A stretch of DNA of 46,975 nt from positions 1 through 46,975 of the forward strand of contig JANLRV010000030.1 of NCBI GenBank assembly GCA_031361905.1, in the 5' to 3' direction. The position numbers and the translations under genes were made by a program. Position 1 is the first letter of the stretch. Every line of letters begins with the position of its first letter. Below the pieces are notes generated by a model, which did not search any database, had not been told where the DNA came from, and saw nothing but the letters and a program-made list of their open reading frames with translations. Source of the stretch: Actinomycetes bacterium (GTDB lineage Bacteria > Actinomycetota > Thermoleophilia > Gaiellales > JALYLC01). Positions 750 through 40,326 of this stretch are shown here, piece after piece.

Positions 750-753
<4 letters not shown>

Positions 754-5301: not shown

Positions 5302-5703
5302 TCACGGCACCGCGAGCGCGTCGACCCAGCCGCGCGTGTCGGTGAACTGGTGGAAGCGCACGGCCTTGCCGTCGCGGAACTTCCAGAGGTGGGCGAAGGG
5401 GATGTCGAGCGGGCGGCCGCTGGCCTTCGCCTTGCCGGTGTAGCGGCCGAGCACGACGACGTGGTCGTCGCCGCCGATGATCTCGGAGGGGGTCGCGTCG
5501 AAGTCGTCCCACCACTGGTCGTCGAGCGGATCGAAGACCGCGGCGCGCACGGCGGGAAGGCCGTCGTAGACGCCGCCGTGCGGCAGCCCCTGCGCCTGGT
5601 GCCAGACGATTCCGAGGTCCATCATCTCGAGCGCGCCGTCGAGATCGCCGCGCGAGAACGCCTCGTATGACCGCGTCACGGCTGCGAGGTTGCCGGTGCT
5701 CAC
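5302..5703 (-). CDS. SnoaL/NTF2-like protein
   Basis: GTG 5703 coupled to upstream TGA; YEAFSRGD, GLPHGGVYDG, VVVLGRYTG, FAHLWKFRDGK..F.QFTDT. Confidence 0.85.
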   Translation of the reverse strand: MSTGNLAAVTRSYEAFSRGDLDGALEMMDLGIVWHQAQGLPHGGVYDGLPAVRAAVFDPLDDQWWDDFDATPSEIIGGDDHVVVLGRYTGKAKASGRPLDIPFAHLWKFRDGKAVRFHQFTDTRGWVDALAVP

Positions 5704-12309: not shown

Positions 12310-12340
12310 GGAACGGGAGGGCGAGCGCGAAGGACCGGTG

Positions 12341-12574
12341 ATGACTCCCGTGCTGCTCTCCCGTCCCGTGTCCGCCGTCGAAGCGCGAGATCTGCGCATC
12401 GGCGATGCCCTCGACGAGGGGCGCGACGACCTGCTGCAGGTCGTGCGGCTCGAGATCGGCGAGTCGGTCGTCCGCCTGCTCGCGGCTCACGCCGGCGAGG
12501 TCGTCTCGCGCACGCTCTCGCCCCGCGAGCTCGTGCTCTGCGTCGCGCGCGAGCAGCTCGCCGCCTCCGCGTAA
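12341..12574 (+). CDS. Small hypothetical protein (~77 aa)
   Basis: AAGGA before GTG/ATG, host-like GC3 codons, fills the gap between two + strand genes; no family recognised. Confidence 0.6.
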   Translation: MTPVLLSRPVSAVEARDLRIGDALDEGRDDLLQVVRLEIGESVVRLLAAHAGEVVSRTLSPRELVLCVAREQLAASA

Positions 12575-21293: not shown

Positions 21294-21383
21294 CGGAGAA
21301 GGAGGGATTCGAACCCTCGACAGAGGTTGACCCCCTGTAACGCCTTAGCAGGGCGCCGCTTTCAGCCACTCAGCCACTTCTCC
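21294..21383 (-). tRNA. tRNA-Ser(GCT)
   Basis: GGAGAAG/CTTCTCC acceptor stem, anticodon loop CTGCTAA, long variable arm, GGTTCGAATCC; CCA not encoded. Confidence 0.97.
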
Positions 21384-24686: not shown

Positions 24687-25537
24687 AGGCTCGCTTCGAC
24701 CCGTCGACTGCGCCGGCCGAGCGGCGCGCGGTCGGTTGCTCCGTCGAGCCGTCCCGCGAACACCCACAGCGGATCGCTCGCCTCGACGATGGTCCGGCGC
24801 AGCTCGAAGGGCTCCGCGAACGGAATCCGATTCGCCCCGAACTCGCACGTCAGCGCCGCGCTGAAACCCGCCTCGCGCACGAGCTGCACGTCGCGCGTCG
24901 AGTGATAGCCGGCCGGATAGCAGAACAGCCGGGCCTCGCGTCCGAGCTCGTGCTCGACCACGCGCTTCGACTCGCGGATCTCGTGCTCGGCCTGCTCCCG
25001 GCTCACGCGCGGGAGGATCGGGTGGGTCATCGTGTGCGGCTCGAAGCGGATCGCGCTGCGGGCCTCCACGGATCGCATGTCGTCCCAGCCGATCAGCGGA
25101 GGCATCTCGCCCGCGGGGTACCAGTCGAAGTGCACGTCGCCCGCGATCGCGCCGGGCACCACGAACACCATGGCCGGCCAGCCTCGCCGCTCGAGCTCGG
25201 GGATCGCCATCTCGAGCACATCCTGGTAGCCGTCGTCGAACGTCAGCGCGATGCCCGCCGCATCTGCGCCGAGCTCGGCGTCGGGCAGGTCGTAGAGGTC
25301 GATCACGGGCAGCCCCGAGGCCTCGATCGCATCGAGCTGGCGCAGGAAGGCACGCGGCGAGATCGCCAGCGGATCGGTCGACTCGGCGATCCGATGCCAG
25401 TAGAGGATGCGCAACCCGGCGGCCCGGTGGCGCGTGCGCACGCGGTGCACGGCGACCTGGCCGGCGACGAGCGTCGCCTTGGCGAGGCCGATGCCGGGAC
25501 GTCGACGCGGAACGCGCGACAGGTCAGAGCTCGCCAT
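24683..25537 (-). CDS. Polysaccharide deacetylase (CE4/NodB, IcaB-like)
   Basis: ILYWHRI, LTFDDG, HTMTH, FCYPAG. Confidence 0.9.
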   Translation of the reverse strand: MASSDLSRVPRRRPGIGLAKATLVAGQVAVHRVRTRHRAAGLRILYWHRIAESTDPLAISPRAFLRQLDAIEASGLPVIDLYDLPDAELGADAAGIALTFDDGYQDVLEMAIPELERRGWPAMVFVVPGAIAGDVHFDWYPAGEMPPLIGWDDMRSVEARSAIRFEPHTMTHPILPRVSREQAEHEIRESKRVVEHELGREARLFCYPAGYHSTRDVQLVREAGFSAALTCEFGANRIPFAEPFELRRTIVEASDPLWVFAGRLDGATDRAPLGRRSRRVEASL

Positions 25538-27000
25538 CAACCGACTCTAACCCGGGTCCCGGGTCGCGTGGAAGCCCCCATCGGCCGCCGGCCGTCCGGC
25601 TGTTTCGCGTCGAGCAGCGCGCAGCACCAGATCAACGGCGCGAGCACCCAGAGGTGTCGCCAGTGCAGCGTGTCGACGAAGATCCCGTTGAGCGACAGGC
25701 CCGCCCAGGCGCTCACGAGCGCGGCCGAGCCGATGCCGTGCAGATCGGCATCGCGCATCGCGGCGGAGGCGCCGATCACGAGCGTGCCGACGATCAGCAC
25801 GATCAAGAGGCCCGCGCCGATCAGGCCCTGCTCGAAGATCACGCGCACGTAGGTCGAGTGGGTCGAGTAGGCCAGCTCGACCTCGGCCGAGCCCGGGCCG
25901 TGCCCGAGCGTCTTCTCGGTCATCCGGTGAAGCGCCTCGTCCTGGGCGCCGAAGCGGTGGGTGTCGTAGCGCTGCTCGGCCTTCGCGCGCTGGCCGAGGA
26001 AGCCGAGCGAGTCGGTGGCGGCGAGCAGGCCGAAGGCGAGCGCGCCGCTGACGACGAGCACGGCGATCGCCCGCAGCATCGGGCCGATGCCCTGGTGGCG
26101 CCACAGGTAGATGAAGACGATGCCGAGCAAGGTGACCACGAGGTTGCCCCAGGCGGCGCGTGAGAACGAGAACACGACGCCGCTCGAGCACGCGGCGAGC
26201 AGCACGAAGAGGCGTCGCGTCGAGTAGCCGAGCAAGCGTGGGCGCGCGATCTCCTCGAGCAGGATCGCGGCTGCCGGCACGAGGAACGGCCCGAACACGT
26301 TGGGGTCCTTGAAGAGGCCCTGCGCGCGCGAGTTCTGGTAGATCATGAAGCCGAGGCCCGGCAGGTGCGCTTTCAGCGCGAGCACCGCGATCACCGCGGA
26401 GCCCGCCGCCGCGAGGATGTAGGCCTTGATCATCAGCTGCGTCAGGCGCTCGCTCGCGAACATGCCCGAGAGCCAGACCGCGGAGAGGATCAGGAAGAGG
26501 CTCACCCCCGCGAAGCGGAACGAGCCGGCCGGGGTCTTCGAGTTGATCATCGAGATCATCGTGATCAGGGCCAGACCCCAGAGCGCGATCTGCGAGCTCG
26601 GCGGCACGTGCAGCTTCGCGAACGGTCGGCGGACGCTGCCGAGCGCCATCAGGGCGAGCAGCAGGATGTCGTAGGGCGCCGGCTCGACGCGGACGACCGG
26701 CAGCAGCGCGAACGCGCAGACCAAGACCCAGGCCGGCCGGTACGCGACGAGCGGGAGCAGCACGAACGCCACGGCGAAGACGAACGGCAGCGCCGTGACG
26801 ACGATCGGAGGCACGCGGGGGAGCGCGACGGCGAGCACGCCGCCGAGCACCACGGCGACGACGAGCCACGCGGCGAACAGGAGCCTGCCGCTGCTCGCGG
26901 GCCGGCCGAGCTGGCTGCGGACGGTTGCCATTGCTATCGGATCGTCGAAGGCGGTCGCTGCGGGGCCACTGTTACGCGGTGGACCCGTAGCCGTAGCCAT
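25537..27000 (-). CDS. Wzy polymerase / O-antigen ligase family membrane protein
   Basis: RAQGLFKDPNVFG, FSFSRAAW, LGHGPG, HSTYV...EQG..G. Confidence 0.85.
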   Translation of the reverse strand: MATATGPPRNSGPAATAFDDPIAMATVRSQLGRPASSGRLLFAAWLVVAVVLGGVLAVALPRVPPIVVTALPFVFAVAFVLLPLVAYRPAWVLVCAFALLPVVRVEPAPYDILLLALMALGSVRRPFAKLHVPPSSQIALWGLALITMISMINSKTPAGSFRFAGVSLFLILSAVWLSGMFASERLTQLMIKAYILAAAGSAVIAVLALKAHLPGLGFMIYQNSRAQGLFKDPNVFGPFLVPAAAILLEEIARPRLLGYSTRRLFVLLAACSSGVVFSFSRAAWGNLVVTLLGIVFIYLWRHQGIGPMLRAIAVLVVSGALAFGLLAATDSLGFLGQRAKAEQRYDTHRFGAQDEALHRMTEKTLGHGPGSAEVELAYSTHSTYVRVIFEQGLIGAGLLIVLIVGTLVIGASAAMRDADLHGIGSAALVSAWAGLSLNGIFVDTLHWRHLWVLAPLIWCCALLDAKQPDGRRPMGASTRPGTRVRVG

Positions 27001-28591
27001 AGCCGAACCCGTGCTCGGCGGACGAGCTCGGCGGGTTCGTCACGATCAGGCCGATCGGCGTGATCTCGGCGCCCTCGAGGACGTTCATCGCGCGCCGGGC
27101 GGCGTCCCTGTTCGCGACCTCGAGGTTCGTCACGACGATCGTCGCGTCGGCGGCGCGTGCGAGCAGCGGCGTCTCGCCTGCAGAGAGCACGGGCGGCGTG
27201 TCGATGATCACGACGTCGTAGCGGCGACGCGCCTCGACGAGCAGCTTCGCCATCGCGGGCGAGCCGTAGAGCACGGCCGGGTCCGGGAAGCGCTTGTCGT
27301 TCGCGAGCAGGTGCAGCACGCCCTCGCGGTTTCCGAGCGAGGCGCTCGGCTCGATCGTGCGGACCGCGGCGCTGAGGCGGAGCTCACCGCTCAGCACGTC
27401 GACCAGGCTGTCGCCGAAAGCCTCGTCGAAGTACTGGTGCAGGGCCGGCGCGCGCAGGTCGGCCGAGATCGCGAGCACGCGCAGGCCGGCGGCGGCGAAC
27501 GCGGATGCGATGTTCGCGACGGCGCCGCTCTTGCCCTCGGCTGCGAGGGCGGAGGTCACGATCACGACGCGGTGCTCGCCGCGCTCGATGCCGTAGAGCG
27601 TCAGGTTCGTGCGGATCGTCCGGTAGGCGTCGGCGGCTCGAGATGAGTCCGAGAAGTCGATCATCCCCGCGCGGCGCTGGCCACGCGACGCTTCGACGTT
27701 CTTCGGCACGACGCCGAGCACCGGCAGGTGGAACGCGCCCTCGACGTCCTCCATCGTGCGCAGACGGCGGTCGAGGCGGTCGCGGGTGACGGCAGCGGCG
27801 CAGCCGAAGAGCAGGCCCGCGAGCAGGCCGATCAGCGCGTTGCGCACCGGCTGGGGCGCGACGGGCGACTCGGGCAGGTCGGCCCGGCGGACGATGTCGA
27901 GCTCGCTCGGGCCGTAGTTCCCGCCCTTCGCGTTCGCCGCGTCGAGCTGGCTCTGCACGTCGGCCCGCTCGATCACGAGCGCCGCCTTCTGATCGTCGGT
28001 GACGCCGTTCGCGTCGGCCTTGTTGAGCTGGGCGTTGAGCAGTCTCAGCCGCTGCTTGAGGTCTTCCAGCAGACGGCTCCCGTCCCATCGGTCGGCCGCC
28101 AGCGCGACGGTCTGCGCGATCTCCCGCGCGCGCGCCGCGGTCGAGGCGGTGGCGGTGATCTGCAGCAGGTACTGGTCGCTCGACGGCGTCACCGTGATCT
28201 TCTTCTCGATGTTCTCGGACGACATCTTGAGCGGGGTCTCGGCCAGGTTGAGCACGACCGGCGAGTCGATCTTGGTCGCCAGCGTGATCAGGCCGGGCGA
28301 GTCGAACTGGCCGGGGTTCTGGCTCACGGGCGGCGTCCAGGTGAGGCGCGCTGTCGACTCGAACCGCTCCGGCTGGATCAGCGAGAAGACGTAGACGGCG
28401 AGCGTGATCGCGAGCGCCGTGGCTGCGATGATGAGCCACTGCTCGCGCAGCAGGCCGACGTAGCGGCGAAGGTCGTTGTCATCCGGCATGGGTGGCCTCA
28501 GGCCGCCCTGCGGCCTGCGGCCCACTGTAGACGGCAGGTGGCCGCCACCGTTCAGTCCGGCCGTGGTCTCGATCTGGTCGATCTCGGTCAT
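26972..28591 (-). CDS. Wzc-like polysaccharide copolymerase / BY-kinase
   Basis: AGGAG then ATG 28591; TM-coiled coil-PxxPxxP-TM, AYRTIRTNL, Walker A AEGKS, ADLR.P, IIDTPP, C-terminal GFGYGYGYG tyrosine cluster. Confidence 0.92.
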   Translation of the reverse strand: MTEIDQIETTAGLNGGGHLPSTVGRRPQGGLRPPMPDDNDLRRYVGLLREQWLIIAATALAITLAVYVFSLIQPERFESTARLTWTPPVSQNPGQFDSPGLITLATKIDSPVVLNLAETPLKMSSENIEKKITVTPSSDQYLLQITATASTAARAREIAQTVALAADRWDGSRLLEDLKQRLRLLNAQLNKADANGVTDDQKAALVIERADVQSQLDAANAKGGNYGPSELDIVRRADLPESPVAPQPVRNALIGLLAGLLFGCAAAVTRDRLDRRLRTMEDVEGAFHLPVLGVVPKNVEASRGQRRAGMIDFSDSSRAADAYRTIRTNLTLYGIERGEHRVVIVTSALAAEGKSGAVANIASAFAAAGLRVLAISADLRAPALHQYFDEAFGDSLVDVLSGELRLSAAVRTIEPSASLGNREGVLHLLANDKRFPDPAVLYGSPAMAKLLVEARRRYDVVIIDTPPVLSAGETPLLARAADATIVVTNLEVANRDAARRAMNVLEGAEITPIGLIVTNPPSSSAEHGFGYGYGYGSTA

Positions 28592-30429
28592 GCTGCTCCT
28601 TGGGGGCACGCTGCGAGGCGGGGATTGGCTCTCCGCGCACGCGCGCAGGCCTCCGCGTGGGTGGTCGGATCGGGGGCGAACGAGGCCGCGAGGGCCCAGC
28701 CCGTCCAGTCGTTCGGTGCGCGCCGGGTGGCCGCCAGCGCGTTGCGGTAGGCGCCTTCGAGGTCGCCCCGGCCCGCCTGGATGCGGGCCTGCGCCCGCTC
28801 GGGCGCCGGGTCGAACGGGTTGAGCGCGGCGGCCAGCTCGGCGCTGTCGGCGTCGCCGGTGCGGAGCGCGCGGTCGGTCAGGCGCGCCGACCAGAACACC
28901 GGGAGCACCCACAGCACGGCCGCTGCGGCGAGCACGATCGCGGCGGCACGCTGCGGCCGCCGGGCGACGGCGCGGCCGTGCGCCGCGAGGCCGGCGCCGA
29001 TGCCGAGCAGAATCACCGTGGGGATCGCGGCCGAGGGGACCTGCCACTGCCAGTCGACCTGCGAGTGTGCGAGCGCGCCGGCGGCGCCGACGAACCCGCC
29101 GGCGACGATCGGGCTGCGCGCGCGCTCGGCGCGGCGAACGAGGCCGAGCAGGCCGATCGCCGCGATCACGAGGCCGAGCGCGAGGCCTGGGATGCCGAGC
29201 GTCGAGGCGAGCTCGAAGCCCTCGCCGTGCGCCTGGGCCGGCAGCTCGTCGCTGCGGCCGCGCTGCTGGTAGGTGGGCCCGAAGCTGCCGGCCCCGACCC
29301 CGCTCAGCGGGTGCGCCCCGAGGTCGCGCACGGCGACGCGCCAGAAGTCGTAGCGGTTCGACGTCGACGAGTCGAACAGGTGCAGGTCGCCGTCGTTGGC
29401 GCCGTTCACCTGCTGGAAGCGATCCCAGCCGCGCGCGATGCGCGACGGCGCGTCGTGCGCCAGGGCGATCCCGCCGCCGACGCCGATCAGCCCGACGACG
29501 AGGCCGAGCATGCCCAGCGCGGCAACCCGGTGCGCGCGCGGAGAGAGCACGAGCCGCCCGTCGACGAGCGCATAGACGAGGCCCAGCGCGGCGGCCGCGG
29601 CCATCGCGAGCAGCACCTCTTTGGCGGCCTCGCTGGTTTTCGCCGAGGCCCCGGTCTCGAGGCTCGCGTGCAGCGTGCGGAGGGTCGGTGCGATGCACGC
29701 GGCGGCGAGCGCGACCGGCGCGAGCAGGCGCAGCCGCTCGGGGGCGAGCGCGAGCGCGATCGGCCCGGCGACCGCCAGCGCGATCAGCGCGCCGCGGCTC
29801 TCGGTCAGGGCCGCGAGCCCGGCACAGCCGACGGCCGCCGCCAGGGCGAGCGCGCGCAGCGGGGCCAGCAGGCGACGCTCGGCCGCGATCCCGAGCAGGG
29901 GAAAGAGCGGGACGAGCGCATATGCCGCCGTGGCGTTCGGATAGCCGCCGGGCCAGTCGAGGCGTCCCTCCGCGAACCAATCGGGATTCGGCGATGAGGC
30001 GAGCTGGAAGAGCGCGTAGGTCACGATCAGCGCGCCGCTCGACGCGACCGCCGCGATCGCGATCTCGGCGTCGCGCAGGCGGCGGACGACGACGAATGCG
30101 AACGTGAAGACCGCGGCGTAGAAGAGCGCGCGCGATGCCTCGACCGTCGCCTCGCCGGGCAGCACGGCCCAGCTCGCCGAGGCCGCGCTCCAGGCGGCGA
30201 GCAGCATGAACGCGCCGCACGCCCAGAGTCCGGGCCCGCGCCGCACGCCCGATGGCGCGAGCGCGACGATGCCGGCGGCGAGCGCGCAGGTGCCGAGCGC
30301 GAACGGCATCCACTCGTCCGTGCCCGTCGCGCCTCCCTTGGCGGCGAGCACAAGAGAGAGGGCGGCGGGCGCGAGCAGGAGGGACGCCTGCGCTGCTGCG
30401 GGCAGCGAGGCTATGCGGAGCGCCGTCAC
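28588..30429 (-). CDS. O-antigen ligase family protein with C-terminal TPR-like helices
   Basis: R...P.GYPNA, TESRGA, R..FW.VA, P..GVGAGSF, AH......LG..GL, HS.VDW.W; CAAGAT 6 nt before GTG. Confidence 0.85.
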   Translation of the reverse strand: MTALRIASLPAAAQASLLLAPAALSLVLAAKGGATGTDEWMPFALGTCALAAGIVALAPSGVRRGPGLWACGAFMLLAAWSAASASWAVLPGEATVEASRALFYAAVFTFAFVVVRRLRDAEIAIAAVASSGALIVTYALFQLASSPNPDWFAEGRLDWPGGYPNATAAYALVPLFPLLGIAAERRLLAPLRALALAAAVGCAGLAALTESRGALIALAVAGPIALALAPERLRLLAPVALAAACIAPTLRTLHASLETGASAKTSEAAKEVLLAMAAAAALGLVYALVDGRLVLSPRAHRVAALGMLGLVVGLIGVGGGIALAHDAPSRIARGWDRFQQVNGANDGDLHLFDSSTSNRYDFWRVAVRDLGAHPLSGVGAGSFGPTYQQRGRSDELPAQAHGEGFELASTLGIPGLALGLVIAAIGLLGLVRRAERARSPIVAGGFVGAAGALAHSQVDWQWQVPSAAIPTVILLGIGAGLAAHGRAVARRPQRAAAIVLAAAAVLWVLPVFWSARLTDRALRTGDADSAELAAALNPFDPAPERAQARIQAGRGDLEGAYRNALAATRRAPNDWTGWALAASFAPDPTTHAEACARARRANPRLAACPQGAA

Positions 30430-30530
30430 TACGCCATCTTGGGGGCAACCCACTGAGGGGTCAATACCACCCCAGTGATTTCCATCGGTCCTCCGCAAAT
30501 CGGCAGGGTCCCATTGTTCTAATATAAAGC

Positions 30531-31433
30531 TCAACTTGAGGTTGATGGTAGCGCTTCGATCGGATACCAGCACGCGGCCAGCTGAAGAGCGCTGCCGGCC
30601 GGTCCGAGCGACGGGCTCTCGGCCTGGCAGCGCTCGCGCGCCCGGTCGCAGCCGCCGGCGTAGATGCAGCCGGGGCCCGGCCGTGTGAGCGGTGGCGGCC
30701 AGCTTGCGGGCGGCTCCGGCGCACGCTCGGCCGCGCCGGCCGTGCGCACGAGATCGCGCGTGGCCGGGTGCGCGGGCGCGAGCAGCACGTTCGCGGTGGG
30801 ACCGAGCTCGACGAGGCGCCCCTTGACGAGCACGGCGACGCGGTCGGCGAGTGCCCACGCGAGGGCCGGCGAGCGCGTCAGCAGAAGCAGGCCGCGGCCG
30901 TGCTGGCGGTGCTCGCGCGCGACCGCCCCGAGCAGGCTCCAGCGATCGGCCGCCGCGAGCCGTGCGAACGGCTCGGCCAGCACGATGCCCTCCGGCTCGC
31001 CGACGAGCACGCACGCGAGCGCCGCGCGGGTGCGCTCCGGCAGCGTCAGCGTCGAGGCGCGGCGTGCGCGATGCGCGTGCGCGAGGCCGACGCGGTCGAG
31101 CGCCCGGTCGACCGCCGACTCGTCGGGGGCGCGCAGCGACTGCTCGACGAGGTCGGAGACGAGGCTGCGGTCGTCGAGCATCGCCGACGCGTCCTCGGGA
31201 AGCACGCGCAGGCGCCCGCGTCGCTCACGCCCCGCGCAGACCGCCCCGGCGATCGCGATCGAGCCGGCGACGGGCTCGCGCAGGCCGATCAGCAGGTCGA
31301 GGATCGGTGCCGGGTCGGCGTCGACCACGAGCGCGAGCGACTCGCCGGCGTGCCAGGCGAGGTCGACGTCGGCGAGGCCCTCCGCCGTCACGCGCCGGAG
31401 CTCGAGCGAGGGACGGTCGGCGCGGACCGTCAT
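30531..31433 (-). CDS. Degenerate OppF/DppF-like ABC protein (pseudo-ATPase) with oligo-HPY Cys4 tail
   Basis: ADRVAVLVKGRLVELG, PAHPATRDL, GCIYAGGC..A.ERC...AAC; no Walker A, signature reads LTLPE, Walker B reads LAEP. Confidence 0.75.
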   Translation of the reverse strand: MTVRADRPSLELRRVTAEGLADVDLAWHAGESLALVVDADPAPILDLLIGLREPVAGSIAIAGAVCAGRERRGRLRVLPEDASAMLDDRSLVSDLVEQSLRAPDESAVDRALDRVGLAHAHRARRASTLTLPERTRAALACVLVGEPEGIVLAEPFARLAAADRWSLLGAVAREHRQHGRGLLLLTRSPALAWALADRVAVLVKGRLVELGPTANVLLAPAHPATRDLVRTAGAAERAPEPPASWPPPLTRPGPGCIYAGGCDRARERCQAESPSLGPAGSALQLAACWYPIEALPSTSS

Positions 31434-32212
31434 GCGCCCCTGCGCCCGCGTGGAGGCGCGGTCAGGCGACCCGGCTGCCACGGCGCGAGCACGCACGCGC
31501 TGAGGTGATCGCCCGAGACATCGACGAGCGCCGGGGTGCCGCCCCGGCAGAGCTCGCGCGCGTAGGCGCAGCGCCGGTGATAGGCGCACCCGCGGGCGGC
31601 GCGCTCGGGGAGCGGGCGGGGCGAGGCCGCGATCCCCGCGTCTCGCGGGCCGCCGATCGTGATCGCGGTCGTCAGCAGCTCGGCCGTCGCCGGGTGCTCG
31701 GGCGCCTCTGCGATCGCGGCCGCCTCCGCGAGCTCGACGATGCGCCCGGCATAGAGCACGGCGATCCGCGTGCACCCCTGGATCGCCGCGTGCAGATCCG
31801 GAGTCGCGATCAGCACGCCGCAGCCGCTCTCGGCTGTGCGGCGCGCGAGCCCGAAGACCCACGCCCGCTCGCCGGGCAGCGCCGCGTGGCCCGGATCGCG
31901 GCCGACGGCGACGGTCGTCGGCTGCCGGGCCGGGTCGAGGGCGCCGATCTCGTCGCGCAGCGCGCGCATCCCGCGCGCAGTCCGCCGCTGCAGCGAGAAC
32001 GGGGCCGTCTCGGTGACGAGCTCGAGCTCGCCCGCGCCGATCACCTCGTCGGGCCCGAGCTCGCCGAGCAGGGCGGCGACGAGCGTGTCGGCGCCCGATC
32101 GCGGATCGCCGACGAGGCCGATGATCTCGCCCGGCTCGACCGTCAGCGAGATCCCGTGCAGCGCGCCCCGCGCGCTCGAGATCTCGAGGTCGGCGATGCG
32201 GAGGACGCTCAC
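31430..32212 (-). CDS. Degenerate OppD/DppD-like ABC protein (pseudo-ATPase) with oligo-HPY Cys4 tail
   Basis: GISL.VEPGEIIGLVG, Walker A reads GDPRSGADT, no signature or Walker B, ATPDL for THDL, RIAVLYAGRIVE, PEHPAT, GCAYHRRC..A.ELC...SAC. Confidence 0.75.
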   Translation of the reverse strand: MSVLRIADLEISSARGALHGISLTVEPGEIIGLVGDPRSGADTLVAALLGELGPDEVIGAGELELVTETAPFSLQRRTARGMRALRDEIGALDPARQPTTVAVGRDPGHAALPGERAWVFGLARRTAESGCGVLIATPDLHAAIQGCTRIAVLYAGRIVELAEAAAIAEAPEHPATAELLTTAITIGGPRDAGIAASPRPLPERAARGCAYHRRCAYARELCRGGTPALVDVSGDHLSACVLAPWQPGRLTAPPRGRRGA

Positions 32213-33525
32213 GCGAGCCGCTCCGCCCGTGCGAGCACGAGCACGCTCGTCGCGAGCGCCGCGGCCCACGCGCCGGCGACGCCGCCGTACCACCAGTTGC
32301 CGGCCGGCAGCGCACCCGCGCCGACCGCATCGGCCAGGACTCCGCCGAGCGTCGACCGGTCTCCGGTCACGAGCGCGACGCTCGATTCCGCGATCAGCGC
32401 GGCGCCGAGCGCAGCGAATCCGCCCGCGATCGCAGGCGGCACGACCGCCGGCAGCACGTGCCGGCGTGCGATCTCGAGGGCCGAGCCCCCGAGCGAGCGC
32501 GTGCGCCACACGGTCGCGGCCGCCAGCGTCCGCTCGGCGCAGGGCCGGATCCGGCCGGCGGCGATCGCCCATGCGAGCACCGCCAGGAGCATCGCCGTGC
32601 CGAGCGACGGGCTGCCGTTGGCGACCGAGACCGAGCCGGTCACGAGCGGAATCAGCGGAAGCAGCAGGACGGCCCGTTCGAGACGCCCGTGCACGCGTAG
32701 CCCCGCAGATCCGAGTGCCGACGCGGCGAGCGTCGAGGCGGTCGCCACGAGCGAGCCAAGCACGGCCGCGGCGCCTCCCAGAAGCAGCGAGGAGCGGGTC
32801 GCGTCGCAGAGGCGGGCGAGCAGATCGCGGCCGAGCTGATCGGTGCCGAGCCAGTGCAGCGAGGACGGCGGCTGCATGCGCTCGAACGGGATCGGGCTCT
32901 CGAGCACGAGCGACGCCGACCCGGCCAGCGTGGGACCGAGCGAGGCGACGAGCAGGCCCGTCGCCGCGACGCCCACGGCGATCCGAAGCGGCAGCGCGTG
33001 TGGCGCCAGCGTCGCCGCACCGCCCGCTCGCCCGAGCCGTGACGCTGCGAGGTCGGCGAGCCAGGCGAGGGCCAAGAGCAGGCAGAACGCGCCGAGCAGC
33101 GTCGCGTGGTCGCCGCTGCGCGCGGCTCGTCCGGCGACCTGGCCGAGTCCCTCGCGCCCGAGCGCGAGCTCGATCGCGGGCAGCGCGGCGACCGCGAGGC
33201 CGAGCTGTCCGCGTGCGATCAGAGGGGCCACGGCGATCGCGAGCGCTGCGATCGCGAGCGGGGTCGAGTCGCTCACCCGCGCGGGCGGCCACAGGAGCAG
33301 CGCGAGCAGCGCTAGCGAGGAGAGCGCGGGGATCGCGAGCGAGAGACGGGCGAGGCGCGAGCGCGCGAGCGCGAAGCCGATCGCACCCGCCGGCAGCGCG
33401 AGGGCGAGGCTGTCAGGAAGCGCGTCCAGCGCGGCCGTGAACGAGGGGCGCGCGCGCAGCGCTGCGCCGCCGATCGCGAGCGCGATGCCGAGGCTCGCGA
33501 GCGAGCCGAGCGCACGTCGGATCAC
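32209..33525 (-). CDS. Divergent fused OppB/OppC-like permease
   Basis: N-half with GLGQ.......D (OppB-like C-terminus); C-half PPS..HWLGTDQLGRDLLARL, RSLGGS..EIARRHVLP, ESS. Confidence 0.72.
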   Translation of the reverse strand: MIRRALGSLASLGIALAIGGAALRARPSFTAALDALPDSLALALPAGAIGFALARSRLARLSLAIPALSSLALLALLLWPPARVSDSTPLAIAALAIAVAPLIARGQLGLAVAALPAIELALGREGLGQVAGRAARSGDHATLLGAFCLLLALAWLADLAASRLGRAGGAATLAPHALPLRIAVGVAATGLLVASLGPTLAGSASLVLESPIPFERMQPPSSLHWLGTDQLGRDLLARLCDATRSSLLLGGAAAVLGSLVATASTLAASALGSAGLRVHGRLERAVLLLPLIPLVTGSVSVANGSPSLGTAMLLAVLAWAIAAGRIRPCAERTLAAATVWRTRSLGGSALEIARRHVLPAVVPPAIAGGFAALGAALIAESSVALVTGDRSTLGGVLADAVGAGALPAGNWWYGGVAGAWAAALATSVLVLARAERLA

Positions 33526-35036
33526 GCCGGTGCCCGCTCGATCGGCTCGCTCCGTGCACGCAGCCACGGTCCCAGCGCGACTGCGACCGCGACGAGCGCG
33601 ATCACGCTCGCGAGGATCCAGCCCGACCACGAGACCGGCTGGCCGCGCACGGCCTCGAGCTCGGAGATGCCGCGTGAGGAGCCCACGCTGAGAATGCCGG
33701 CGCCGCTCGCGGGGATCGCCCAGCGCGCGCGTGAGACGGCGGTGATCGTGGTGGGCTCGGCGAGCGGGATCGCGCGGGACTCGCTGGCGGCGCGCTCCTG
33801 CAGTCGCGCGTACACGCGCGCGAGGGCGGCGGTCGACTCCTCACCACGGGCCTTCGAGAGCAGCGCGGCGATCGCCCGGCTCCCGGTCGCGAGCGGCGCG
33901 AGCAGCGAGTCGGGGGAGGGACCGCCCGAGAGCAGCGAGAGCCGCGCGGTCGCGTTCTCGTCGAAGATCACATCGATGCCGATCGCGCGGGCATCTCGCC
34001 GGACCAGGGCGGCCGCGAGGCGCGCCTCGGTCGAGTGGTCGACCGCGATCCGCATCTCCGCGCGCAGCTTCCCGCGCGAGCGAATCCCGCTCGCCCCGAC
34101 CTGCCAGCCCTCGTGCTCGAGCAGCGCGCGCGCCTCGTTCGCGTCGAAAGCGGGCTGCAGTCGCGGGGCTCGATGCCAGGCGAGATAGCCGACGGGGATC
34201 ACCGAGCTCGCGACGAGACCGTGGCCGTCGAAGACGTGCGCGACGATCCCCTCTCGATCGATGCCGGTAGTGAGGGCCGCGCGCAGCGCGAAGGGAATCG
34301 CGGCGCCCTCGAGGTCGAGGCGCAGGGAGGCGAGCGATGGGCGCTCGACGAGCGTGATCGCAGGCGAGGGGGCGAGGCGCGCAGACTCGCCCGGTGCGAT
34401 CTCGAGCGCGTCGAGCTTGCGGGAGAGCAGCGATTCGAGCTGTCCTGCCCGATCGGGCCGATAGCTGAAGATGATGCCGTCGGGCCCCGAGGCGGGGCGT
34501 CCAGAGAGCGGGTTGCGCGCGAGGATCACCGTGCTCCGCGAGGTTCCGGCGATCCGGTAGGGTCCCGAGCCGAGCGTGCGAGCGCTCGAGACCCCGACGG
34601 CGAGCAGCGCGAACTCCTGGCTCGCGTGGGGCAGGCGCACGACGACGGTGGCGGTGTCGAGCGCCGTGATCGAGGTCGGTGCGACAGGCAGCAGCGAGCG
34701 GCGCAGCGAGCGAACGACGTCGGCGGCGTGCAGCGGGCTGCCGTCGCTGAAGCGCACGAGCGGCCGCAGGCGGTAGGTCCAGGTCCGCCCTCGCTCGCTC
34801 GAGCGCACGGAGATCGCAAGCGATCGGGCGAGGTCCGGCCCGAGCGTGGCGGGGTCGATCGAGACGAGCGGCTCGAACACGAGCGAGGTGATCTCGCGCT
34901 CCTGCTCGGTCTGCGCGGCGTCCGGTTCGAGCTGGACGATCGGGGAGGATAGCCCGATCCGGAACTCGCGCCGGGGTGCCGCCTCGACACCGCTTGCGAT
35001 CAGCGAAATCGCGCTGAGCAGGGCTGGAAGAACCAA
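33522..35036 (-). CDS. Divergent family-5 (OppA/DppA-like) solute-binding protein with C-terminal TM anchor
   Basis: VFEPLV, TWTYRLR..VRFSDG.PL.AADV, GSGPY, IDREGIV, A.ALL..EGW; signal ending VEA-A; C-terminal WILASVIALVAVAVALG; start uncertain (TTG 35036, ORF open to 35153). Confidence 0.78.
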   Translation of the reverse strand: MVLPALLSAISLIASGVEAAPRREFRIGLSSPIVQLEPDAAQTEQEREITSLVFEPLVSIDPATLGPDLARSLAISVRSSERGRTWTYRLRPLVRFSDGSPLHAADVVRSLRRSLLPVAPTSITALDTATVVVRLPHASQEFALLAVGVSSARTLGSGPYRIAGTSRSTVILARNPLSGRPASGPDGIIFSYRPDRAGQLESLLSRKLDALEIAPGESARLAPSPAITLVERPSLASLRLDLEGAAIPFALRAALTTGIDREGIVAHVFDGHGLVASSVIPVGYLAWHRAPRLQPAFDANEARALLEHEGWQVGASGIRSRGKLRAEMRIAVDHSTEARLAAALVRRDARAIGIDVIFDENATARLSLLSGGPSPDSLLAPLATGSRAIAALLSKARGEESTAALARVYARLQERAASESRAIPLAEPTTITAVSRARWAIPASGAGILSVGSSRGISELEAVRGQPVSWSGWILASVIALVAVAVALGPWLRARSEPIERAPA

Positions 35037-35089
35037 CCACGAACCGATCCGTATGGGTGGGAAACGCGTATCGGTTGTGTTTTTAGGGG

Positions 35090-35117
35090 TTGTCACGTCA
35101 AGGGGAAGGGGTATGCT
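35090..35117 (+). promoter_or_regulatory. Putative sigma70-type promoter for the sugar transferase operon
   Basis: TTGTCA-N16-TATGCT in the AT-richer divergent intergenic region. Confidence 0.5.
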
Positions 35118-35251
35118 AGATCCGAGGTTTCGGTAGGAACCAGAGGAGTTCACAGGGCTTCTACCGCTTTATGCAGGTTAGGGTGGGAATTGCAACCCGT
35201 ACGAACCTCACATTCACCCATCACACCGCGAGACGGAATCACCCACACCAG

Positions 35252-36640
35252 ATGAGCATCACAGAACAGCAGACGAGCACCCTGGCACCCGTGACCTCCG
35301 GTCTCGCGATGCCGCTGAGGCCGCGCCGCGCCGCGCGCAAGCGCATGGTCTCCGGGAGCTGGCTGCTGCTGGGCCTCGTCGCGACGGGTCTCTGGGCCGT
35401 CGCCGGCGGAACGTCGCCCCGCGCGTTCGGCTTCGGGGTCGCGTTCGCCGCGCTGACGCTCTCGATCAACGCCGCGCTGATGCGGGACCGCGGCGACTAC
35501 CACGCGGCCCTGAGCGTGCGGATGGTGCGCCACGCGCAGTCCACCGCGTTCGCCACGATGGTCGTGCTCGCCGCCTCCGCCGTTCTCGATCTCGGCATGT
35601 CGCCGGCTCGCGTCGCGGTCGCCGGCCTCGCGCTCTGGCTCTTCAGCGTCGCCGTCGACTTCCACTGGCATCGCCTCCGCTCCACCTCGCGCCCGCTTCG
35701 CGTGCTCGGGCTCGGCAGCGGTGAGGCTGCGCTTCGCCTCAAGACGGTCGCGGCCGTGGACAAGCCGAAGGGCATGGAGCTGATCGGCTTCGTCGACGAT
35801 GGCGCCGGCGCGGTCTCGACGGTCGGCGGTCTCGCCGACCTCGACGTGATCGTCGCCGAGCACGAGGTCGACGCCGTCGTCTTGACCTCGCAGGACCGCC
35901 GTCTGGAGCTGCTCGAGCACGTGCTCGCGCTGCCGGGCCGCACGCCGTCCGTGCTCGAGCTCAGCGACTTCTACGAGCGCGCCTACGGCCGCGTCCCGAT
36001 CGCCGACATCAACGCGGCCTGGTTCCTCGAGGCGCTCGCGCTGCAGCGACGCTCGGTCGCCAGCATCCCGCGGCGCGCCGTCGAGCTGATGGTGACGCTC
36101 GTGCTCGCAGTCGTCGCGCTCCCCGTGATGGCGCTCGTTGCGATCGCGATCAAGCTCGACTCGCCGGGCACCGTCTTCTACCGCCAGCGCCGCGTCGGCG
36201 AGGGCGGCAGGACGTTCACGATCGTCAAGTTCCGCTCGATGCGGAGCGACGCCGAGAGCAACGGCGTGCAGTGGGCCAGCGAGCGCGACCCGCGCGTCAC
36301 GCGCGTCGGCGCCTTCCTGCGCCGCTGCCGGCTCGACGAGCTTCCGCAAGTGTGGAACGTGCTCAAGGGCGAGATGGCGCTGGTCGGCCCGCGTCCCGAG
36401 CGCCCCGAGCTCGTCGCCGAGCTCGTCCGCCACGTCCCCTTCTACGAGCCGCGGCATCTGGTCCGCCCGGGCGTGACCGGCTGGGCACAGGTCTACGCCC
36501 CCTACGCGTCCTCCGTGCAGGAGAGCGTCGACAAGCTTTCTTACGATCTCTACTACGTCAAGCATCAATCATTCGCCACCGACGTCGGCATCATGCTCAG
36601 CACGCTCGGCGTGATGGCTGGCGGAAAGGGCGCTCGGTAA
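35252..36640 (+). CDS. Priming phosphoglycosyl transferase (WcaJ/WbaP-like sugar transferase)
   Basis: N-terminal TMs, [57 protein letters not shown]. Confidence 0.95.
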
Positions 36641-36654: not shown

Positions 36655-37062
36655 ATGCGAAAACGACTCACCATGCTGGTCGCCGTGATGGCGATCGCCA
36701 TCACGGTACCCGTCTCGGCGTTCGCCGCCGATGCAACCCCCGTGATCAAGGACGTCGCCAAGGACGGGCGCGTCGACGGCACCTACACGAAGGCACAGCT
36801 CGACGCCGCTCTCAAGAGCCCGTTGCTCAAGCAGTACGCGGGGACCGGTGCCGTCGAGGCCGTCACGTCCAAGAAGGCCGCTCCGGCCAAGAGCACGTCC
36901 GGCCAGAAGCAGGTCAGCTCGGTGGCGCCGCCGGCAACCGGCACGACGAGCAAGCTTCCGTTCACGGGCCTCGAGGCGCTGCTCTTCGGCGGCATCGGTC
37001 TCGGTCTCGCGGGCGCCGGTGGAATCCTCCGCCGCCTCGGCCGGGACTCCGACGCCTCGTAG
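36655..37062 (+). CDS. Small secreted LPXTG (LPFTG) cell-wall-anchored protein
   Basis: MRKR signal peptide ending AFA-A, small domain, S/T/K/A/P-rich linker, LPFTG + hydrophobic helix + RRLGR; alternative ATG 36646. Confidence 0.85.
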   Translation: MRKRLTMLVAVMAIAITVPVSAFAADATPVIKDVAKDGRVDGTYTKAQLDAALKSPLLKQYAGTGAVEAVTSKKAAPAKSTSGQKQVSSVAPPATGTTSKLPFTGLEALLFGGIGLGLAGAGGILRRLGRDSDAS

Positions 37063-37174: not shown

Positions 37175-37789
37175 CTAGAGCTTCGCGCGGTAGCGCGCCA
37201 TCTCGGCGTGGTTGAAGTCGGCGTGCGTCTGCGAGCGCAGGCGCGCGACGAGCTCGTGGTGATACGGGCTCGAGAGGCTCTCGGCGTGGCCGATCACGTT
37301 GCGGCGCGCGATCGAGAAGCGCTGCTGCAGCCAGCGCGTGAGGCGCAGCGAGGCCGCCAGCTGGCGCGGGTTGCCGAGCACCTGCTCGGCCGATGAGCCG
37401 ACGTGCTCGATGCCGATCGCGGTCCAGTTGAGACCGACGGTGTGCCGGCAGCGGGTCGTCAGCGAGACGAGCTGGTAGATCGTCCCGTCGCGATCGACCA
37501 CGAAGTGCGCGCAGACACCGGGCAGCTCGTGCAGCTCGGGGTCGGCCCGGTCGGGCGCGAAGGTCGCGAACGTCGCCGCGAACGTCGTCGTGACGGTGTA
37601 GTGCTCGACGATCACGTGCGGCGTCGTCAGGCGCCACTCCGCCTGCCCGTAGTGCCGCTTCGAGTAGGCGGCCATCTCGGCTCGCCGCTTCGGGCCGAAC
37701 GGGATCGGACGCAAGACGATCGCCGGCCTCGCGATGGCTCCCTGGCTCGGAGCGAGCAGCGCGAAGCTGGCGAGCGTGGCGGCGAGCAT
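37175..37789 (-). CDS. Secreted N-acetylmuramoyl-L-alanine amidase (Amidase_2/PGRP-like)
   Basis: IVEHYT, AHFVVDRDG.IYQLV, HT.G.N..AIGIE, VIGHAE, H.D; TACGCT 6 nt before ATG. Confidence 0.85.
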   Translation of the reverse strand: MLAATLASFALLAPSQGAIARPAIVLRPIPFGPKRRAEMAAYSKRHYGQAEWRLTTPHVIVEHYTVTTTFAATFATFAPDRADPELHELPGVCAHFVVDRDGTIYQLVSLTTRCRHTVGLNWTAIGIEHVGSSAEQVLGNPRQLAASLRLTRWLQQRFSIARRNVIGHAESLSSPYHHELVARLRSQTHADFNHAEMARYRAKL

Positions 37790-37802
37790 GCCGTCAGCGT
37801 AG

Positions 37803-38822
37803 TCAGGCCCCGCCGAACCCGCTCCGCGCGGTGGGCGGCGCGAGCGGGCTGCGCGGCAGGCCGGCGACGGGCTCGGGGGCGTTGTACGCGATCGGCGCGA
37901 CGTCGTTCGCCGTTGCGGGATAGAACAGCGAGGCGAGCTCCTGGATCTGGCTGCGGCCGACGCCGAGCTCGAACTGGCCGCCGCCGTACATCGAGATGCC
38001 TCGCTCGTGGCACGCGTCGATGCACTCGAAGAGGCGCGCGAGCGTGCCGAAACGCGACGGCTTGATGTTGAGGTGCATGACCCGGAGCGGCAGCGCATCG
38101 ACGTCGGCGAGCGCGTGGATCGGAGCGTCGAAGCTGATCCGATCCCAGCAGTCGGCGAGCGCCGCGAGCGCGTCGTCGGCGATCGAGGGATCCTCCAGCA
38201 CCGCGTCCGGGAAGGTCTCGGCGATCAGCCGGTAGAAGCCGTGGTCGAACGGGTTGTCGACCGCCGTGCCGACGTAGAACGCCTTGAAGTCGAGCACGCG
38301 CACGCGTCCGGTGGCTGCGAGCGCCTCGACGTACGAGCGATCCCAGTCGCCGACTGGATCGACCTTGAACTCGAGCGACGGATCGATCGCGAGCCAGTCG
38401 CGGGCGTCGAGGCGCGTCGAGACGCAGAAGCGCACGGGAGCGGCCTCGAGCGCGAGGACTCCGCCGAGGTCGGTGCCCGCCTGCCGCAAGGCCAGGTCGA
38501 GCGCCGAGCTCTCGATCGCCCAGCGCCGATAGTCGTGCGACGCGGGCATGGCGGGCTCAGCGGTGAAGAGCTCGGTCTCATCGAGCAGCCGCGAGAGCGA
38601 GTCGATCGTGTGAGAGCCGGCGAGGGCGTCGAGCGCGGGGTAGAGGTCGTGGTCGGTGGCGGTGTAGCAGACGTCCTCGCCCCGACCGGTCTCGCCGCGT
38701 CCCCGCAGCACGATCTCGGTGCTGACGCGCGTGAAGCCGCTCGAGACGGACTGCTCCTGGCGCGGCAGCTCGACCGACTCGATCTCGAGAGGCAGGTCGG
38801 CGATCTGCGCGTAGGTGCTCAT
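37803..38822 (-). CDS. Enolase-superfamily-like protein of unknown function
   Basis: G.GED, A.ESSALDL, FKVD, LEDP, SFDAP, NIKPSRFG, YGGG.FE. Confidence 0.7.
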   Translation of the reverse strand: MSTYAQIADLPLEIESVELPRQEQSVSSGFTRVSTEIVLRGRGETGRGEDVCYTATDHDLYPALDALAGSHTIDSLSRLLDETELFTAEPAMPASHDYRRWAIESSALDLALRQAGTDLGGVLALEAAPVRFCVSTRLDARDWLAIDPSLEFKVDPVGDWDRSYVEALAATGRVRVLDFKAFYVGTAVDNPFDHGFYRLIAETFPDAVLEDPSIADDALAALADCWDRISFDAPIHALADVDALPLRVMHLNIKPSRFGTLARLFECIDACHERGISMYGGGQFELGVGRSQIQELASLFYPATANDVAPIAYNAPEPVAGLPRSPLAPPTARSGFGGA

Positions 38823-38860
38823 GCGCTGGAACCTAGTGCACCAGAGCTTCAGAAGGGGCG

Positions 38861-40204: not shown

Positions 40205-40234
40205 GCTGCGACTCCTCGGCGCGGGCGCGATCAG

Positions 40235-40326
40235 CGGCGGGGGTGGGATTCGAACCCACGAGACAATCTCAGCGATTGCCCAGCTGCTTTCAAGGCAGCC
40301 GCGTTCGACCGCTCCGCCACCCCGCC
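40235..40326 (-). tRNA. tRNA-Ser(TGA)
   Basis: GGCGGGG/CCCCGCC acceptor stem, GCTGC-CTTGAAA-GCAGC anticodon arm, 8-bp variable stem, GGTTCGAATCC. Confidence 0.96.

What the first reader, a model, noticed from the sequence alone, without database searches (positions are those of the whole stretch)
30531..35036. Intact Opp/Dpp-like ABC module with two apparently dead ATPases, inside a polysaccharide locus
Seen: four open genes coupled by 4-nt GTGA/ATGA overlaps: a family-5 SBP with a C-terminal TM anchor, a fused B/C permease, and D- and F-like subunits. The D subunit has Walker A GDPRSGADT (no Lys), lacks the signature and Walker B region, and has Pro at the H-switch. The F subunit has no P-loop, LTLPE for LSGGQ, AEP for DEP and Arg at the H-switch. 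Known: ABC importers need these motifs to hydrolyse ATP. Inference: about 4.5 kb with no stop or frameshift and preserved coupling suggests repurposing rather than decay, e.g. a non-transporting transmembrane sensor or scaffold. It lies ~100 bp upstream of the ligase-wzc-wzy-deacetylase-GT operon and is divergent from the priming transferase.
Basis: partly seen in the sequence, partly recalled or inferred. Interest (0 to 1): 0.85.

Follow-up and report, generated by a model that had tools for sequence, protein, structure and literature searches.

The report
Conserved ATPase-dead Opp-like membrane complex
A peptide-importer gene set inside a cell-envelope sugar-polymer locus has lost everything it needs to burn ATP, yet it is kept intact in related uncultured bacteria, so it probably now does something other than pumping.

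Summary
On the minus strand, 35036-30531, four genes are joined by GTGA, GTGA and ATGA overlaps. They encode a family-5 binding protein, a 438-aa permease and two Opp D/F-like subunits. Both ATP sites are destroyed.

It is not decay. Public metagenomes hold 4-5 orthologue clusters per subunit searched (58-96% identity). They share the same dead motifs and nearly the same lengths; the D-like subunit has no indel. Of 14 listed strain differences in the module, 12 are synonymous.

The new result is synteny. In the sister genus a fully canonical five-gene Opp operon fills the same slot, between the priming sugar transferase and a Wzy_C gene. Flanking proteins are 44-77% identical there; module proteins only 25-41%. 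So this is the remodelled positional orthologue of a real importer. The B-like half is cut down and fused to C, and D has lost its helical subdomain. Both 4-Cys Fe-S motifs and the C-half coupling region are kept.

Best reading: a complex that still assembles, cannot hydrolyse ATP, and is kept by selection. A receptor or scaffold role for the polysaccharide machinery is inference only. The family is one narrow lineage. No expression data or codon-level dN/dS could be obtained.

The parts
33522..35036 (-). Family-5 solute-binding protein (504 aa from the TTG at 35036). It has an N-terminal hydrophobic signal-like segment and a C-terminal membrane anchor with an R..EPIE tail.
   Evidence: PF00496 scores 125.8 bits. 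Hydrophobic segments at residues 1-19 and 467-494, and the same anchor and tail in the canonical relatives. Alternative in-frame GTG starts lie upstream. 7 of 7 listed strain differences are synonymous.
32209..33525 (-). Single-chain permease (438 aa): an N-half (about residues 1-214) that is a much reduced, weakly OppB-like membrane domain, fused to an OppC-like C-half with a conserved coupling (EAA-like) region.
   Evidence: NCBIfam Opp4C 1.6e-18 over residues 215-406. hhalign of the C-half against OppC gives 99.7%. The best weak hits of the N-half are OppB proteins; hhalign gives E 0.0088; Atlas score 0.88 to BPD_transp_1 clusters. Orthologues are 81, 80, 79 and 58% identical, 434-438 aa long.
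31430..32212 (-). OppD-like pseudo-ATPase (260 aa). It has no Walker A lysine, its helical subdomain, Q-loop and signature are deleted, it has Arg-Asp for the Walker B Asp-Glu and Pro at the H-switch. The 4-Cys C-terminal domain is kept.
   Evidence: AlphaFold model pLDDT 84. Best Foldseek match is M. tuberculosis OppD; E. coli DppD gives TM 0.76 on the query and 0.62 on the target. Six sequences align in 260 columns with no gap.
30531..31433 (-). OppF-like pseudo-ATPase (300 aa), full length. The P-loop is replaced and two residues shorter, with LTLPE, LAEP and Arg at the H-switch. The 4-Cys C-terminal domain is kept.
   Evidence: Profile search of 1.84 billion representatives: own cluster 594 bits, next best 175 bits.
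30430..30530 (-). Short spacer between the F-like stop and the Wzy_C gene. It has an AT-rich stretch right after the stop and a possible 18-codon upstream reading frame ending on the GTG at 30429. No terminator-like site was found.
   Evidence: Sequence read. No terminator-like site in 30200-35400.
28588..30429 (-). Wzy_C-family (O-antigen ligase/polymerase-like) membrane protein, the downstream flank of the slot.
   Evidence: PF04932 at 3.9e-13. 44-48% identical to the gene at the same position in the sister genus.
26972..28591 (-). Wzz + P-loop (BY-kinase, Wzc-like) protein. No match was found within the 20 kb fetched from the sister-genus loci.
   Evidence: PF02706 and PF13614. No hit in L104-L106.
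35246..36640 (+). Priming phosphoglycosyl transferase (Bac_transf), divergent from the module; the upstream flank of the slot.
   Evidence: PF02397 at 1.2e-64. 62-69% identical to the sister-genus gene.
37175..38852 (-). Amidase_2 (37175-37795) and a 349-aa protein of no known family (37803-38852). These are conserved synteny markers.
   Evidence: 73-77% and 66-69% identical to the sister-genus genes. The same arrangement is inferred in two further genomes from coordinates.

Best explanation
This is the remodelled positional orthologue of a genuine Opp-type ABC importer operon that sits inside a cell-envelope polysaccharide locus in this bacterial family.

In the window's lineage the operon went through a burst of change:
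- OppB was cut down and fused to OppC.
- OppD lost its helical subdomain.
- Every ATP-binding and catalytic motif in both composite sites was replaced.
After that burst the new form was held by purifying selection.

Shown:
- The four genes are intact and coupled.
- Both ATP sites are dead at sequence level.
- The dead state is shared by all orthologues found.
- Amino-acid-level constraint exists.
- The ancestral slot holds a canonical operon in the sister genus.

Inferred:
- The proteins still assemble like an Opp complex. The grounds are that the OppC-like coupling region, the full-length F-like fold and both four-cysteine [4Fe-4S] motifs are kept. In E. coli Dpp those cysteines are needed for complex assembly.
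- The complex cannot run an ATP-driven transport cycle.

Most likely mode of action (inference, about 0.35 on its own): the membrane-anchored binding protein still captures an extracellular ligand and docks on a conformationally restricted membrane core. The complex then acts as a receptor or scaffold for the co-oriented, probably co-transcribed Wzy/Wzc polysaccharide machinery, and not as a pump.
For: Intact, coupled genes with normal coding periodicity.

Dead motifs. All 16 other Opp-type NBD reading frames of the genome are canonical.

Orthologues:
- F-like: 5 of 77 hits at 96, 81, 78, 78 and 62% identity.
- D-like: 5 of 142 hits at 95, 80, 79, 79 and 59%.
- Permease: 4 of 12 hits at 81, 80, 79 and 58%.
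- The reported contig lengths coincide (6530, 11831, 13313), which suggests shared contigs.
- The degenerate motifs are invariant in their degenerate form.
- There are 0 gapped columns in D, 8 in F and 7 in the permease. Conservation is uneven along F (p = 0.0017) and along the permease (p = 0.00015).

DNA level:
- 12 of 14 listed differences in the module are synonymous, against about 0.29-0.34 expected (P between 3e-6 and 1.4e-4).
- 252 substitutions and 0 gaps in 4,928 aligned module bases from two runs holding strains about 95% identical.

Synteny:
- Flanking proteins are 44-77% identical to three sister-genus genomes; module proteins are 25-41%.
- Their D and F subunits carry all motifs in 3 of 3 genomes.
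- The same spacing is seen in two more genomes.

Trees: stems of 2.2-3.4 changes per site, with short crowns.

Fe-S motifs: the Cys spacing is CX5CX6CX17C in D and CX5CX6CX18C in F. This is the same as in E. coli DppD and one residue longer than in DppF in the last gap. There the clusters are required for assembly (PMC12136057, passages read).

The D-like model matches Opp/Dpp NBDs but covers only about 60% of them.
Against: - No expression data.
- No orthologue DNA, so there is no codon-model dN/dS. The 14 differences are the ones inside the module among the 40 that the tool showed of 598. They fall only in D and the SBP, and two lie in one codon.
- The module proteins are strongly enriched in Gly/Ala/Arg/Pro (0.41-0.47, against a median of 0.35) and almost free of Lys. 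Their nucleotide divergence between strains is about 1.4-1.6 times that of the flanks. Both show weaker constraint than in ordinary genes.
- The family is a single 50%-identity cluster and was found in no other species representative. Persistence is therefore shown only within a narrow lineage.
- Assembly, ligand binding and any link to Wzc are untested.
- The permease model was unusable.
- SBP orthologues were not retrieved.
- The D-like model was built with canonical homologues in its alignment, so it leans towards their fold.
Confidence: 0.6

Rival explanations
1. The module is a set of pseudogenes in slow decay. The frames stay open only because stop codons are rare at 76% G+C.
For: Every frame of the 4.5 kb holds only 8-14 stops. 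Long spurious open frames overlap the region. The composition is shifted towards Gly/Ala/Arg/Pro. All family scores lie far below curated cut-offs.
Against: Orthologues down to 58% identity keep their lengths; D has no indel at all. 12 of 14 listed differences are synonymous. There are no gaps in about 4.9 kb of diverged strain sequence. The overlapping start/stop junctions are intact.
Confidence: 0.06
2. The reading frames are kept open only to protect the downstream Wzy/Wzc genes from transcriptional polarity and to preserve translational coupling. The proteins themselves have no function.
For: The genes overlap by 4 nt and no terminator-like site was found before the Wzy_C gene.
Against: That pressure would forbid stops and frameshifts, but it would not favour synonymous over non-synonymous change. 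It also would not keep about half of all columns invariant, including the degenerate motifs and the four cysteines. An AT-rich stretch after the F-like stop could hold a separate promoter.
Confidence: 0.07
3. It still transports. Either it borrows canonical ATPases from a paralogous Opp system of the same genome, or it acts as a binding-protein-gated facilitator without ATP.
For: The genome holds several canonical Opp-type D/F pairs, including the closely related operon on contig C158. The OppC-like half keeps its coupling region. The SBP is the best preserved part.
Against: The dead D/F subunits are themselves conserved and translationally coupled to the permease, so they would be expected to occupy the docking sites. 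The OppB-like half lacks the region where a coupling helix would lie. No ABC importer working without ATP turned up in five literature searches, nor do I recall one.
Confidence: 0.12
4. Only the binding protein is functional, for example as a receptor that feeds the paralogous canonical translocator. The other three genes are relics.
For: The SBP passes its Pfam cut-off by a wide margin and 7 of 7 of its listed differences are synonymous.
Against: The permease, D-like and F-like orthologues are as conserved as one another (58-62% at the deepest node) and have almost no indels. 5 of 7 listed differences in D are synonymous.
Confidence: 0.08

Closest known systems
Canonical Opp/Dpp (PepT-type) ABC importers: the sister-genus operon in the same slot, M. 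tuberculosis OppABCD (8j5q), E. coli DppBCDF/OppBCDF (8z1v, 8z21)
   Same: Same gene order. Family-5 SBP, OppC-like membrane domain, D/F-type NBD fold with an oligo_HPY C-terminal domain and four cysteines at the spacing that binds [4Fe-4S] in E. coli Dpp. Same genomic slot as the canonical operon of the sister genus.
   Different: Both ATP sites are destroyed. D lacks the helical subdomain, Q-loop and signature. B is reduced and fused to C. The SBP is 60-100 aa shorter. All curated equivalog scores are missed by hundreds of bits.
ABC transporters with one degenerate nucleotide site (TAP1/2, CFTR, TM287/288, Pdr5; review PMC7756269, seen as a search listing and abstract only)
   Same: Catalytic motifs are replaced in a conserved, selected way while the fold and the complex persist.
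   Different: Those are exporters that keep one consensus site and still hydrolyse ATP. Here neither composite site keeps a Walker A lysine or a signature motif.
Transporter homologues turned receptors (E. coli UhpC; yeast Snf3/Rgt2 and Ssy1), recalled and not from any call
   Same: Proposed logic: a transporter paralogue or orthologue loses transport but keeps ligand recognition and passes the information on.
   Different: Those are secondary-carrier homologues with demonstrated signalling partners. No partner or output is known here, and no ABC-importer example turned up in five literature searches.
Degenerate-enzyme receptors in polysaccharide secretion (PelD, LapD), recalled and not from any call
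   Same: A catalytically dead domain retained next to exopolysaccharide machinery.
   Different: Different folds (GGDEF/EAL) with a known ligand (c-di-GMP). No nucleotide or second-messenger binding is shown or predicted here.

Membership tests
Opp/Dpp-type (PepT) ABC importer | Family-5 extracellular solute-binding protein | tested here: met
   PF00496 scores 125.8 bits against a 32.4 cut-off. The canonical sister-genus SBP scores 203.9 bits.
Opp/Dpp-type (PepT) ABC importer | Two membrane domains, OppB-like and OppC-like, each with a coupling (EAA) helix | tested here: inconclusive
   C-half: hhalign 99.7% to OppC, with the coupling region conserved, but Pfam BPD_transp_1 scores 24.3, below its 26.4 cut-off. 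N-half: only weak OppB-like signals, and it is about 100 aa too short to hold the central region.
Opp/Dpp-type (PepT) ABC importer | Two NBDs with Walker A (GxxGxGK[ST]), Q-loop, LSGGQ signature, Walker B (hhhhDE) and H-switch | tested here: not met
   None of these motifs is present in either subunit, nor in any of the orthologues found. The motif consensus itself is recalled.
Opp/Dpp-type (PepT) ABC importer | C-terminal oligo_HPY domain with four Cys ([4Fe-4S] site) | tested here: met
   PF08352 scores 38.1 and 27.9 bits against a 27.1 cut-off. Cys209/215/222/240 and Cys256/262/269/288 are invariant. The spacing matches DppD and is one residue longer than DppF in the last gap. Cluster binding itself was not tested.
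Opp/Dpp-type (PepT) ABC importer | Curated NCBIfam equivalog scores | tested here: not met
   The best scores are 41-67 bits, against cut-offs of 300-1000 bits.
Opp/Dpp-type (PepT) ABC importer | ATP-driven uptake of peptides | not testable with these tools
   Needs biochemistry. The sequence argues against ATP hydrolysis.
ABC transporters with a single degenerate site | One consensus, hydrolysing site retained beside the degenerate one | tested here: not met
   Site 1 (D Walker A + F signature) and site 2 (F Walker A + D signature) are both degenerate. The composition of the sites is recalled.
Transporter-derived receptors / pseudo-transporters | Loss of transport with retained ligand binding and a signalling output | not testable with these tools
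   Only the loss of the energising motifs and selection on the remainder are shown.

The most novel reading that the evidence does not exclude
This is a natural 'pseudo-transporter': an ABC importer complex converted into an ATP-independent transmembrane receptor or scaffold. Its anchored binding protein would sense an envelope-derived ligand, such as a peptide, muropeptide or glycan fragment. Its dead, Fe-S-bearing NBD pair would pass this on to the Wzx/Wzy/BY-kinase polysaccharide machinery, possibly with redox input. That machinery gained a Wzc-like kinase in the same lineage. It would be the ABC-importer counterpart of UhpC or Snf3/Rgt2.
Probability: 0.2. Interest if true: 0.85.

Novelty: new variant of a known kind. 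Interest (0 to 1): 0.62.

Why it matters
ABC importers are defined by ATP-driven transport. Degenerate sites are known mainly as single sites in exporters that still hydrolyse ATP.

Here a whole importer complex has lost both sites and is nevertheless held by selection. It also comes with a natural canonical counterpart in the same genomic slot of a sister genus. That pair offers a clean comparison for three questions:
- What do the non-catalytic parts of an ABC complex do: the binding protein, the coupling interface and the Fe-S domains?
- How does a transporter become a pseudo-enzyme?
- Why does an Opp system sit inside an envelope-polysaccharide locus at all?

The practical limit is that the lineage is known only from metagenomes.

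Tried and rejected
1. Orthologue DNA. The scan of genome contigs returned 3 loci, all 30-34% identical and unrelated. The scan of metagenome contigs kept 80 of 144 confirmed loci, all at 40% identity or less. So no orthologue DNA was obtained, no codon-model dN/dS, and no synteny for the 58-81% orthologues.

2. First reading, 'recent duplicate of the canonical C158 operon' (after): dropped once synteny with the sister-genus operon was seen. The F tree puts the degenerate clade with the syntenic operons only weakly (support 79/62). The alternative placement is not rejected (p-AU 0.27), so orthology rests on synteny.

3. Synteny beyond the sister genus. Homologues of the 349-aa marker in three further genera lie in unrelated contexts.

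4. The permease AlphaFold model had mean pLDDT 47.2, too poor to search with.

5. hhalign of the permease N-half against OppB gave probability 4.6% and E 0.0088. The Atlas score was 0.88. Both are leads only.

6. Complex prediction on permease + F + D, with D as the partner, returned 'no answer': score 0.67, control 0.65. This is no evidence either way.

7. The look-up of sequencing runs: no RNA holder listed. This is no evidence on expression.

8. Literature. Five searches found no description of an ABC importer with both sites degenerate. This is not proof of absence. Only PMC12136057 was read, as passages; the rest were seen as listings and abstracts. Supplementary files were not opened. 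The Cys-to-Ser result of PMC12136057 was seen in the main text and in the legend of its S5 figure only.

10. The terminator scan found none, and one promoter-like site on the plus strand. This is weak evidence only.


Full report
**What is there**

The window is 68-76% G+C, so open frames alone mean little; each of the six frames of the 4.5 kb holds only 8-14 stops. Third-position G+C picks out four minus-strand genes:
- SBP, 33522-35036
- permease, 32209-33525
- D-like, 31430-32212
- F-like, 30531-31433

They are joined by GTGA, GTGA and ATGA overlaps.

Pfam and NCBIfam place all four in the Opp/Dpp family, but far below the curated scores:
- SBP_bac_5 scores 125.8 bits.
- BPD_transp_1 scores 24.3 bits, below its cut-off.
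- oligo_HPY is present in both NBD-like proteins.
- ABC_tran scores only 20.5 bits (D, residues 18-56) and 27.8 bits (F).

Two ordinary ABC ATPases at 49-1544 in the same window score 101.6 and 113.3 bits.

**The dead sites**

Alignments with canonical relatives show the following.
- D-like: Ala for the Walker A lysine, and an acidic residue where the Mg-binding Ser/Thr should be. About 32 aa covering the Q-loop and about 24 aa covering the signature are deleted. Arg-Asp stands for the Walker B Asp-Glu, the D-loop Asp is lost, and Pro sits at the H-switch.
- F-like: a P-loop two residues shorter with no Gly-Lys-Ser/Thr. Glu stands for the Q-loop Gln, LTLPE for the signature, Ala for the Walker B Asp, and Arg at the H-switch.

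Each ATP site of an ABC dimer is built from the Walker A of one subunit and the signature of the other (recalled). Both sites are therefore dead. All 16 other Opp-type NBD reading frames of this genome keep Walker A and the signature.

An AlphaFold model of D (pLDDT 84; canonical homologues were in the alignment) matches M. tuberculosis OppD and E. coli DppD. TM-score is about 0.76 on the query but only about 0.6 on the target. A single helix stands where the helical subdomain should be.

**Not decay**

The 5.8-billion-protein search found true orthologues:
- F-like: 96, 81, 78, 78 and 62% identity (5 of 77 hits).
- D-like: 95, 80, 79, 79 and 59% (5 of 142 hits).
- Permease: 81, 80, 79 and 58% (4 of 12 hits, plus the window's own protein).

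All orthologues carry the same degenerate motifs, which are invariant in their degenerate form. The six D sequences align in 260 columns with no gap. F has 8 gapped columns, and the permease has 7.

At the DNA level, contigs from two runs hold strains about 95% identical:
- They show 252 substitutions and no gap in 4,928 module bases. Divergence is 4.9-5.4% in the module against 3.4-3.6% in the flanks.
- The tool listed only 40 of 598 differences. Of the 14 that fall in the module, 12 are synonymous. About 0.29-0.34 would be expected, giving P between 3e-6 and 1.4e-4.
- This sample is small and covers only D and the SBP.

This constraint on amino acids also argues against the idea that the frames are kept open merely to avoid polarity on the downstream genes.

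**Signs of a relaxed past**

The four proteins are 41-47% Gly/Ala/Arg/Pro, against a window median of 35% and 32-38% in the canonical paralogues. They hold 0-3 lysines. In the trees, the degenerate F and D clades sit on stems of 2.2-3.4 changes per site, above short crowns.

**Where it came from**

No orthologue exists in 40 relatives or in the species representatives scanned. An exhaustive profile search of 1.84 billion representatives gave one cluster at 594 bits, then nothing above 175 bits. The family is therefore one narrow lineage.

The nearest canonical relatives were five-gene operons (A, B, C, D, F) in the sister genus and on the genome's own contig C158.

The sister-genus operon lies in the same slot as the module. 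The order there is: a protein of about 340 aa with no family, Amidase_2, a small gene, Bac_transf, the Opp operon, Wzy_C, and further on a deacetylase and GT4. Identities between the window and three sister-genus genomes are:

| Protein | Identity |
|---|---|
| Unnamed protein (349 aa) | 66-69% |
| Amidase_2 | 73-77% |
| Small gene | 49-55% |
| Bac_transf | 62-69% |
| Wzy_C | 44-48% |
| Deacetylase | 59-60% |
| GT4 | 66-70% |
| Module SBP | 25-29% |
| Module OppC-like half | 29-33% |
| Module D-like (C-terminal ~120 aa only) | 37-41% |
| Module F-like | 37-38% |

Further points on origin:
- Two more sister-genus genomes show the same spacing between the marker and OppF.
- The D and F subunits at those loci have every motif, in 3 of 3 genomes.
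- C158 groups with second copies in the sister genus and in a third genus (support 94/99). The degenerate clade joins the syntenic operons only weakly (79/62), and the alternative placement is not rejected (p-AU 0.27).
- The module is thus best read as the positional orthologue of a real importer embedded in this locus.
- The sister-genus slot also holds an extra 364-aa gene and a creatininase-family gene. It shows no Wzc or second Wzy_C gene within the 20 kb fetched.
- The locus is not conserved in three further genera.

**What was kept**

- The SBP keeps its fold signature and a C-terminal membrane anchor with an R..EPIE tail. The canonical relatives have the same anchor and tail, so the anchor is ancestral.
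- The permease C-half is clearly OppC (hhalign 99.7%), including the coupling region.
- The N-half is about 100 aa shorter than OppB. Its best weak matches are OppB proteins, at co-linear positions that skip the central region. hhalign (E 0.0088) and the Atlas (score 0.88) are no more than leads.
- In E. coli Dpp, DppB contacts DppD and DppC contacts DppF (PMC12136057, figure legend read). The reduced B-like half and the D-like subunit without a helical subdomain would therefore be the two faces of one lost interface. This is inference.
- Both NBD-like proteins keep four invariant cysteines. The spacing is that of E. coli DppD, and one residue longer than DppF in the last gap. In E. coli these clusters are required for assembly, and oxidation dissociates the complex.

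**How it most likely works**

Shown:
- The genes are intact and coupled.
- Both ATP sites are dead.
- The dead state is shared by the orthologues.
- There is constraint on the amino-acid sequence.
- The ancestral slot holds a canonical operon.

Inferred:
- The proteins still form an Opp-like complex that cannot cycle with ATP.
- The anchored SBP can still bind something and dock.
- The complex serves the neighbouring polysaccharide machinery as a receptor or scaffold.

No terminator-like site separates the module from the Wzy_C gene, but an AT-rich stretch follows the F-like stop. Nothing here tests the output side.

**Limits**

- No RNA run was listed.
- The complex prediction gave no answer.
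- The permease model failed.
- SBP orthologues and orthologue DNA were not retrieved.

**Verdict**

'Retained, not decaying' is supported; 'sensor or scaffold' remains open. It is a new variant of a known kind, of real interest to ABC-transporter specialists, but confined to an uncultured lineage.

Noticed in passing
window 21294-21383, 40234-40326 and 40535-41668: Two tRNA-Ser genes (anticodons GCT and TGA) bracket the envelope-polysaccharide locus. A phage-type integrase gene lies about 200 bp beyond the second one, as at the edge of an integrated element.
   Followed up: no
window 30429-30485 (minus strand): A possible 18-codon upstream reading frame (ATG at 30485) ends with a TAG that overlaps the candidate GTG start (30429) of the Wzy_C gene. 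An AT-rich stretch follows the F-like stop directly.
   Followed up: no
window 49-5194 (minus strand): A complete, ordinary branched-chain-amino-acid-type ABC importer: two ATPases, two BPD_transp_2 permeases and a Peripla_BP_6 binding protein. It served as an internal control for normal ABC_tran scores.
   Followed up: partly
L104 (G005:C1) 4380-5474 and 11696-12502; window 25537-28591: The sister-genus slot carries an extra 364-aa gene of no known family and a creatininase-family gene beside the canonical Opp operon. The window instead has a Wzz/BY-kinase gene and a second Wzy_C gene that found no match in the 20 kb fetched.
   Followed up: partly
window 33522-33620; L104-L107 SBP C-termini: Binding proteins of this Opp subfamily, canonical and degenerate alike, end in a hydrophobic membrane anchor followed by a basic stretch and an EP(I/L)E motif.
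   Followed up: partly
window 28588-30429: The Wzy_C protein next to the module is also unusually rich in Gly/Ala/Arg/Pro (0.47) and is the least conserved flank (44-48% identity to the sister genus).
   Followed up: no
window 37803-38852 and 36667-37062: Two conserved genes with no Pfam family (349 aa and 131 aa) belong to the syntenic block shared with the sister genus.
   Followed up: no
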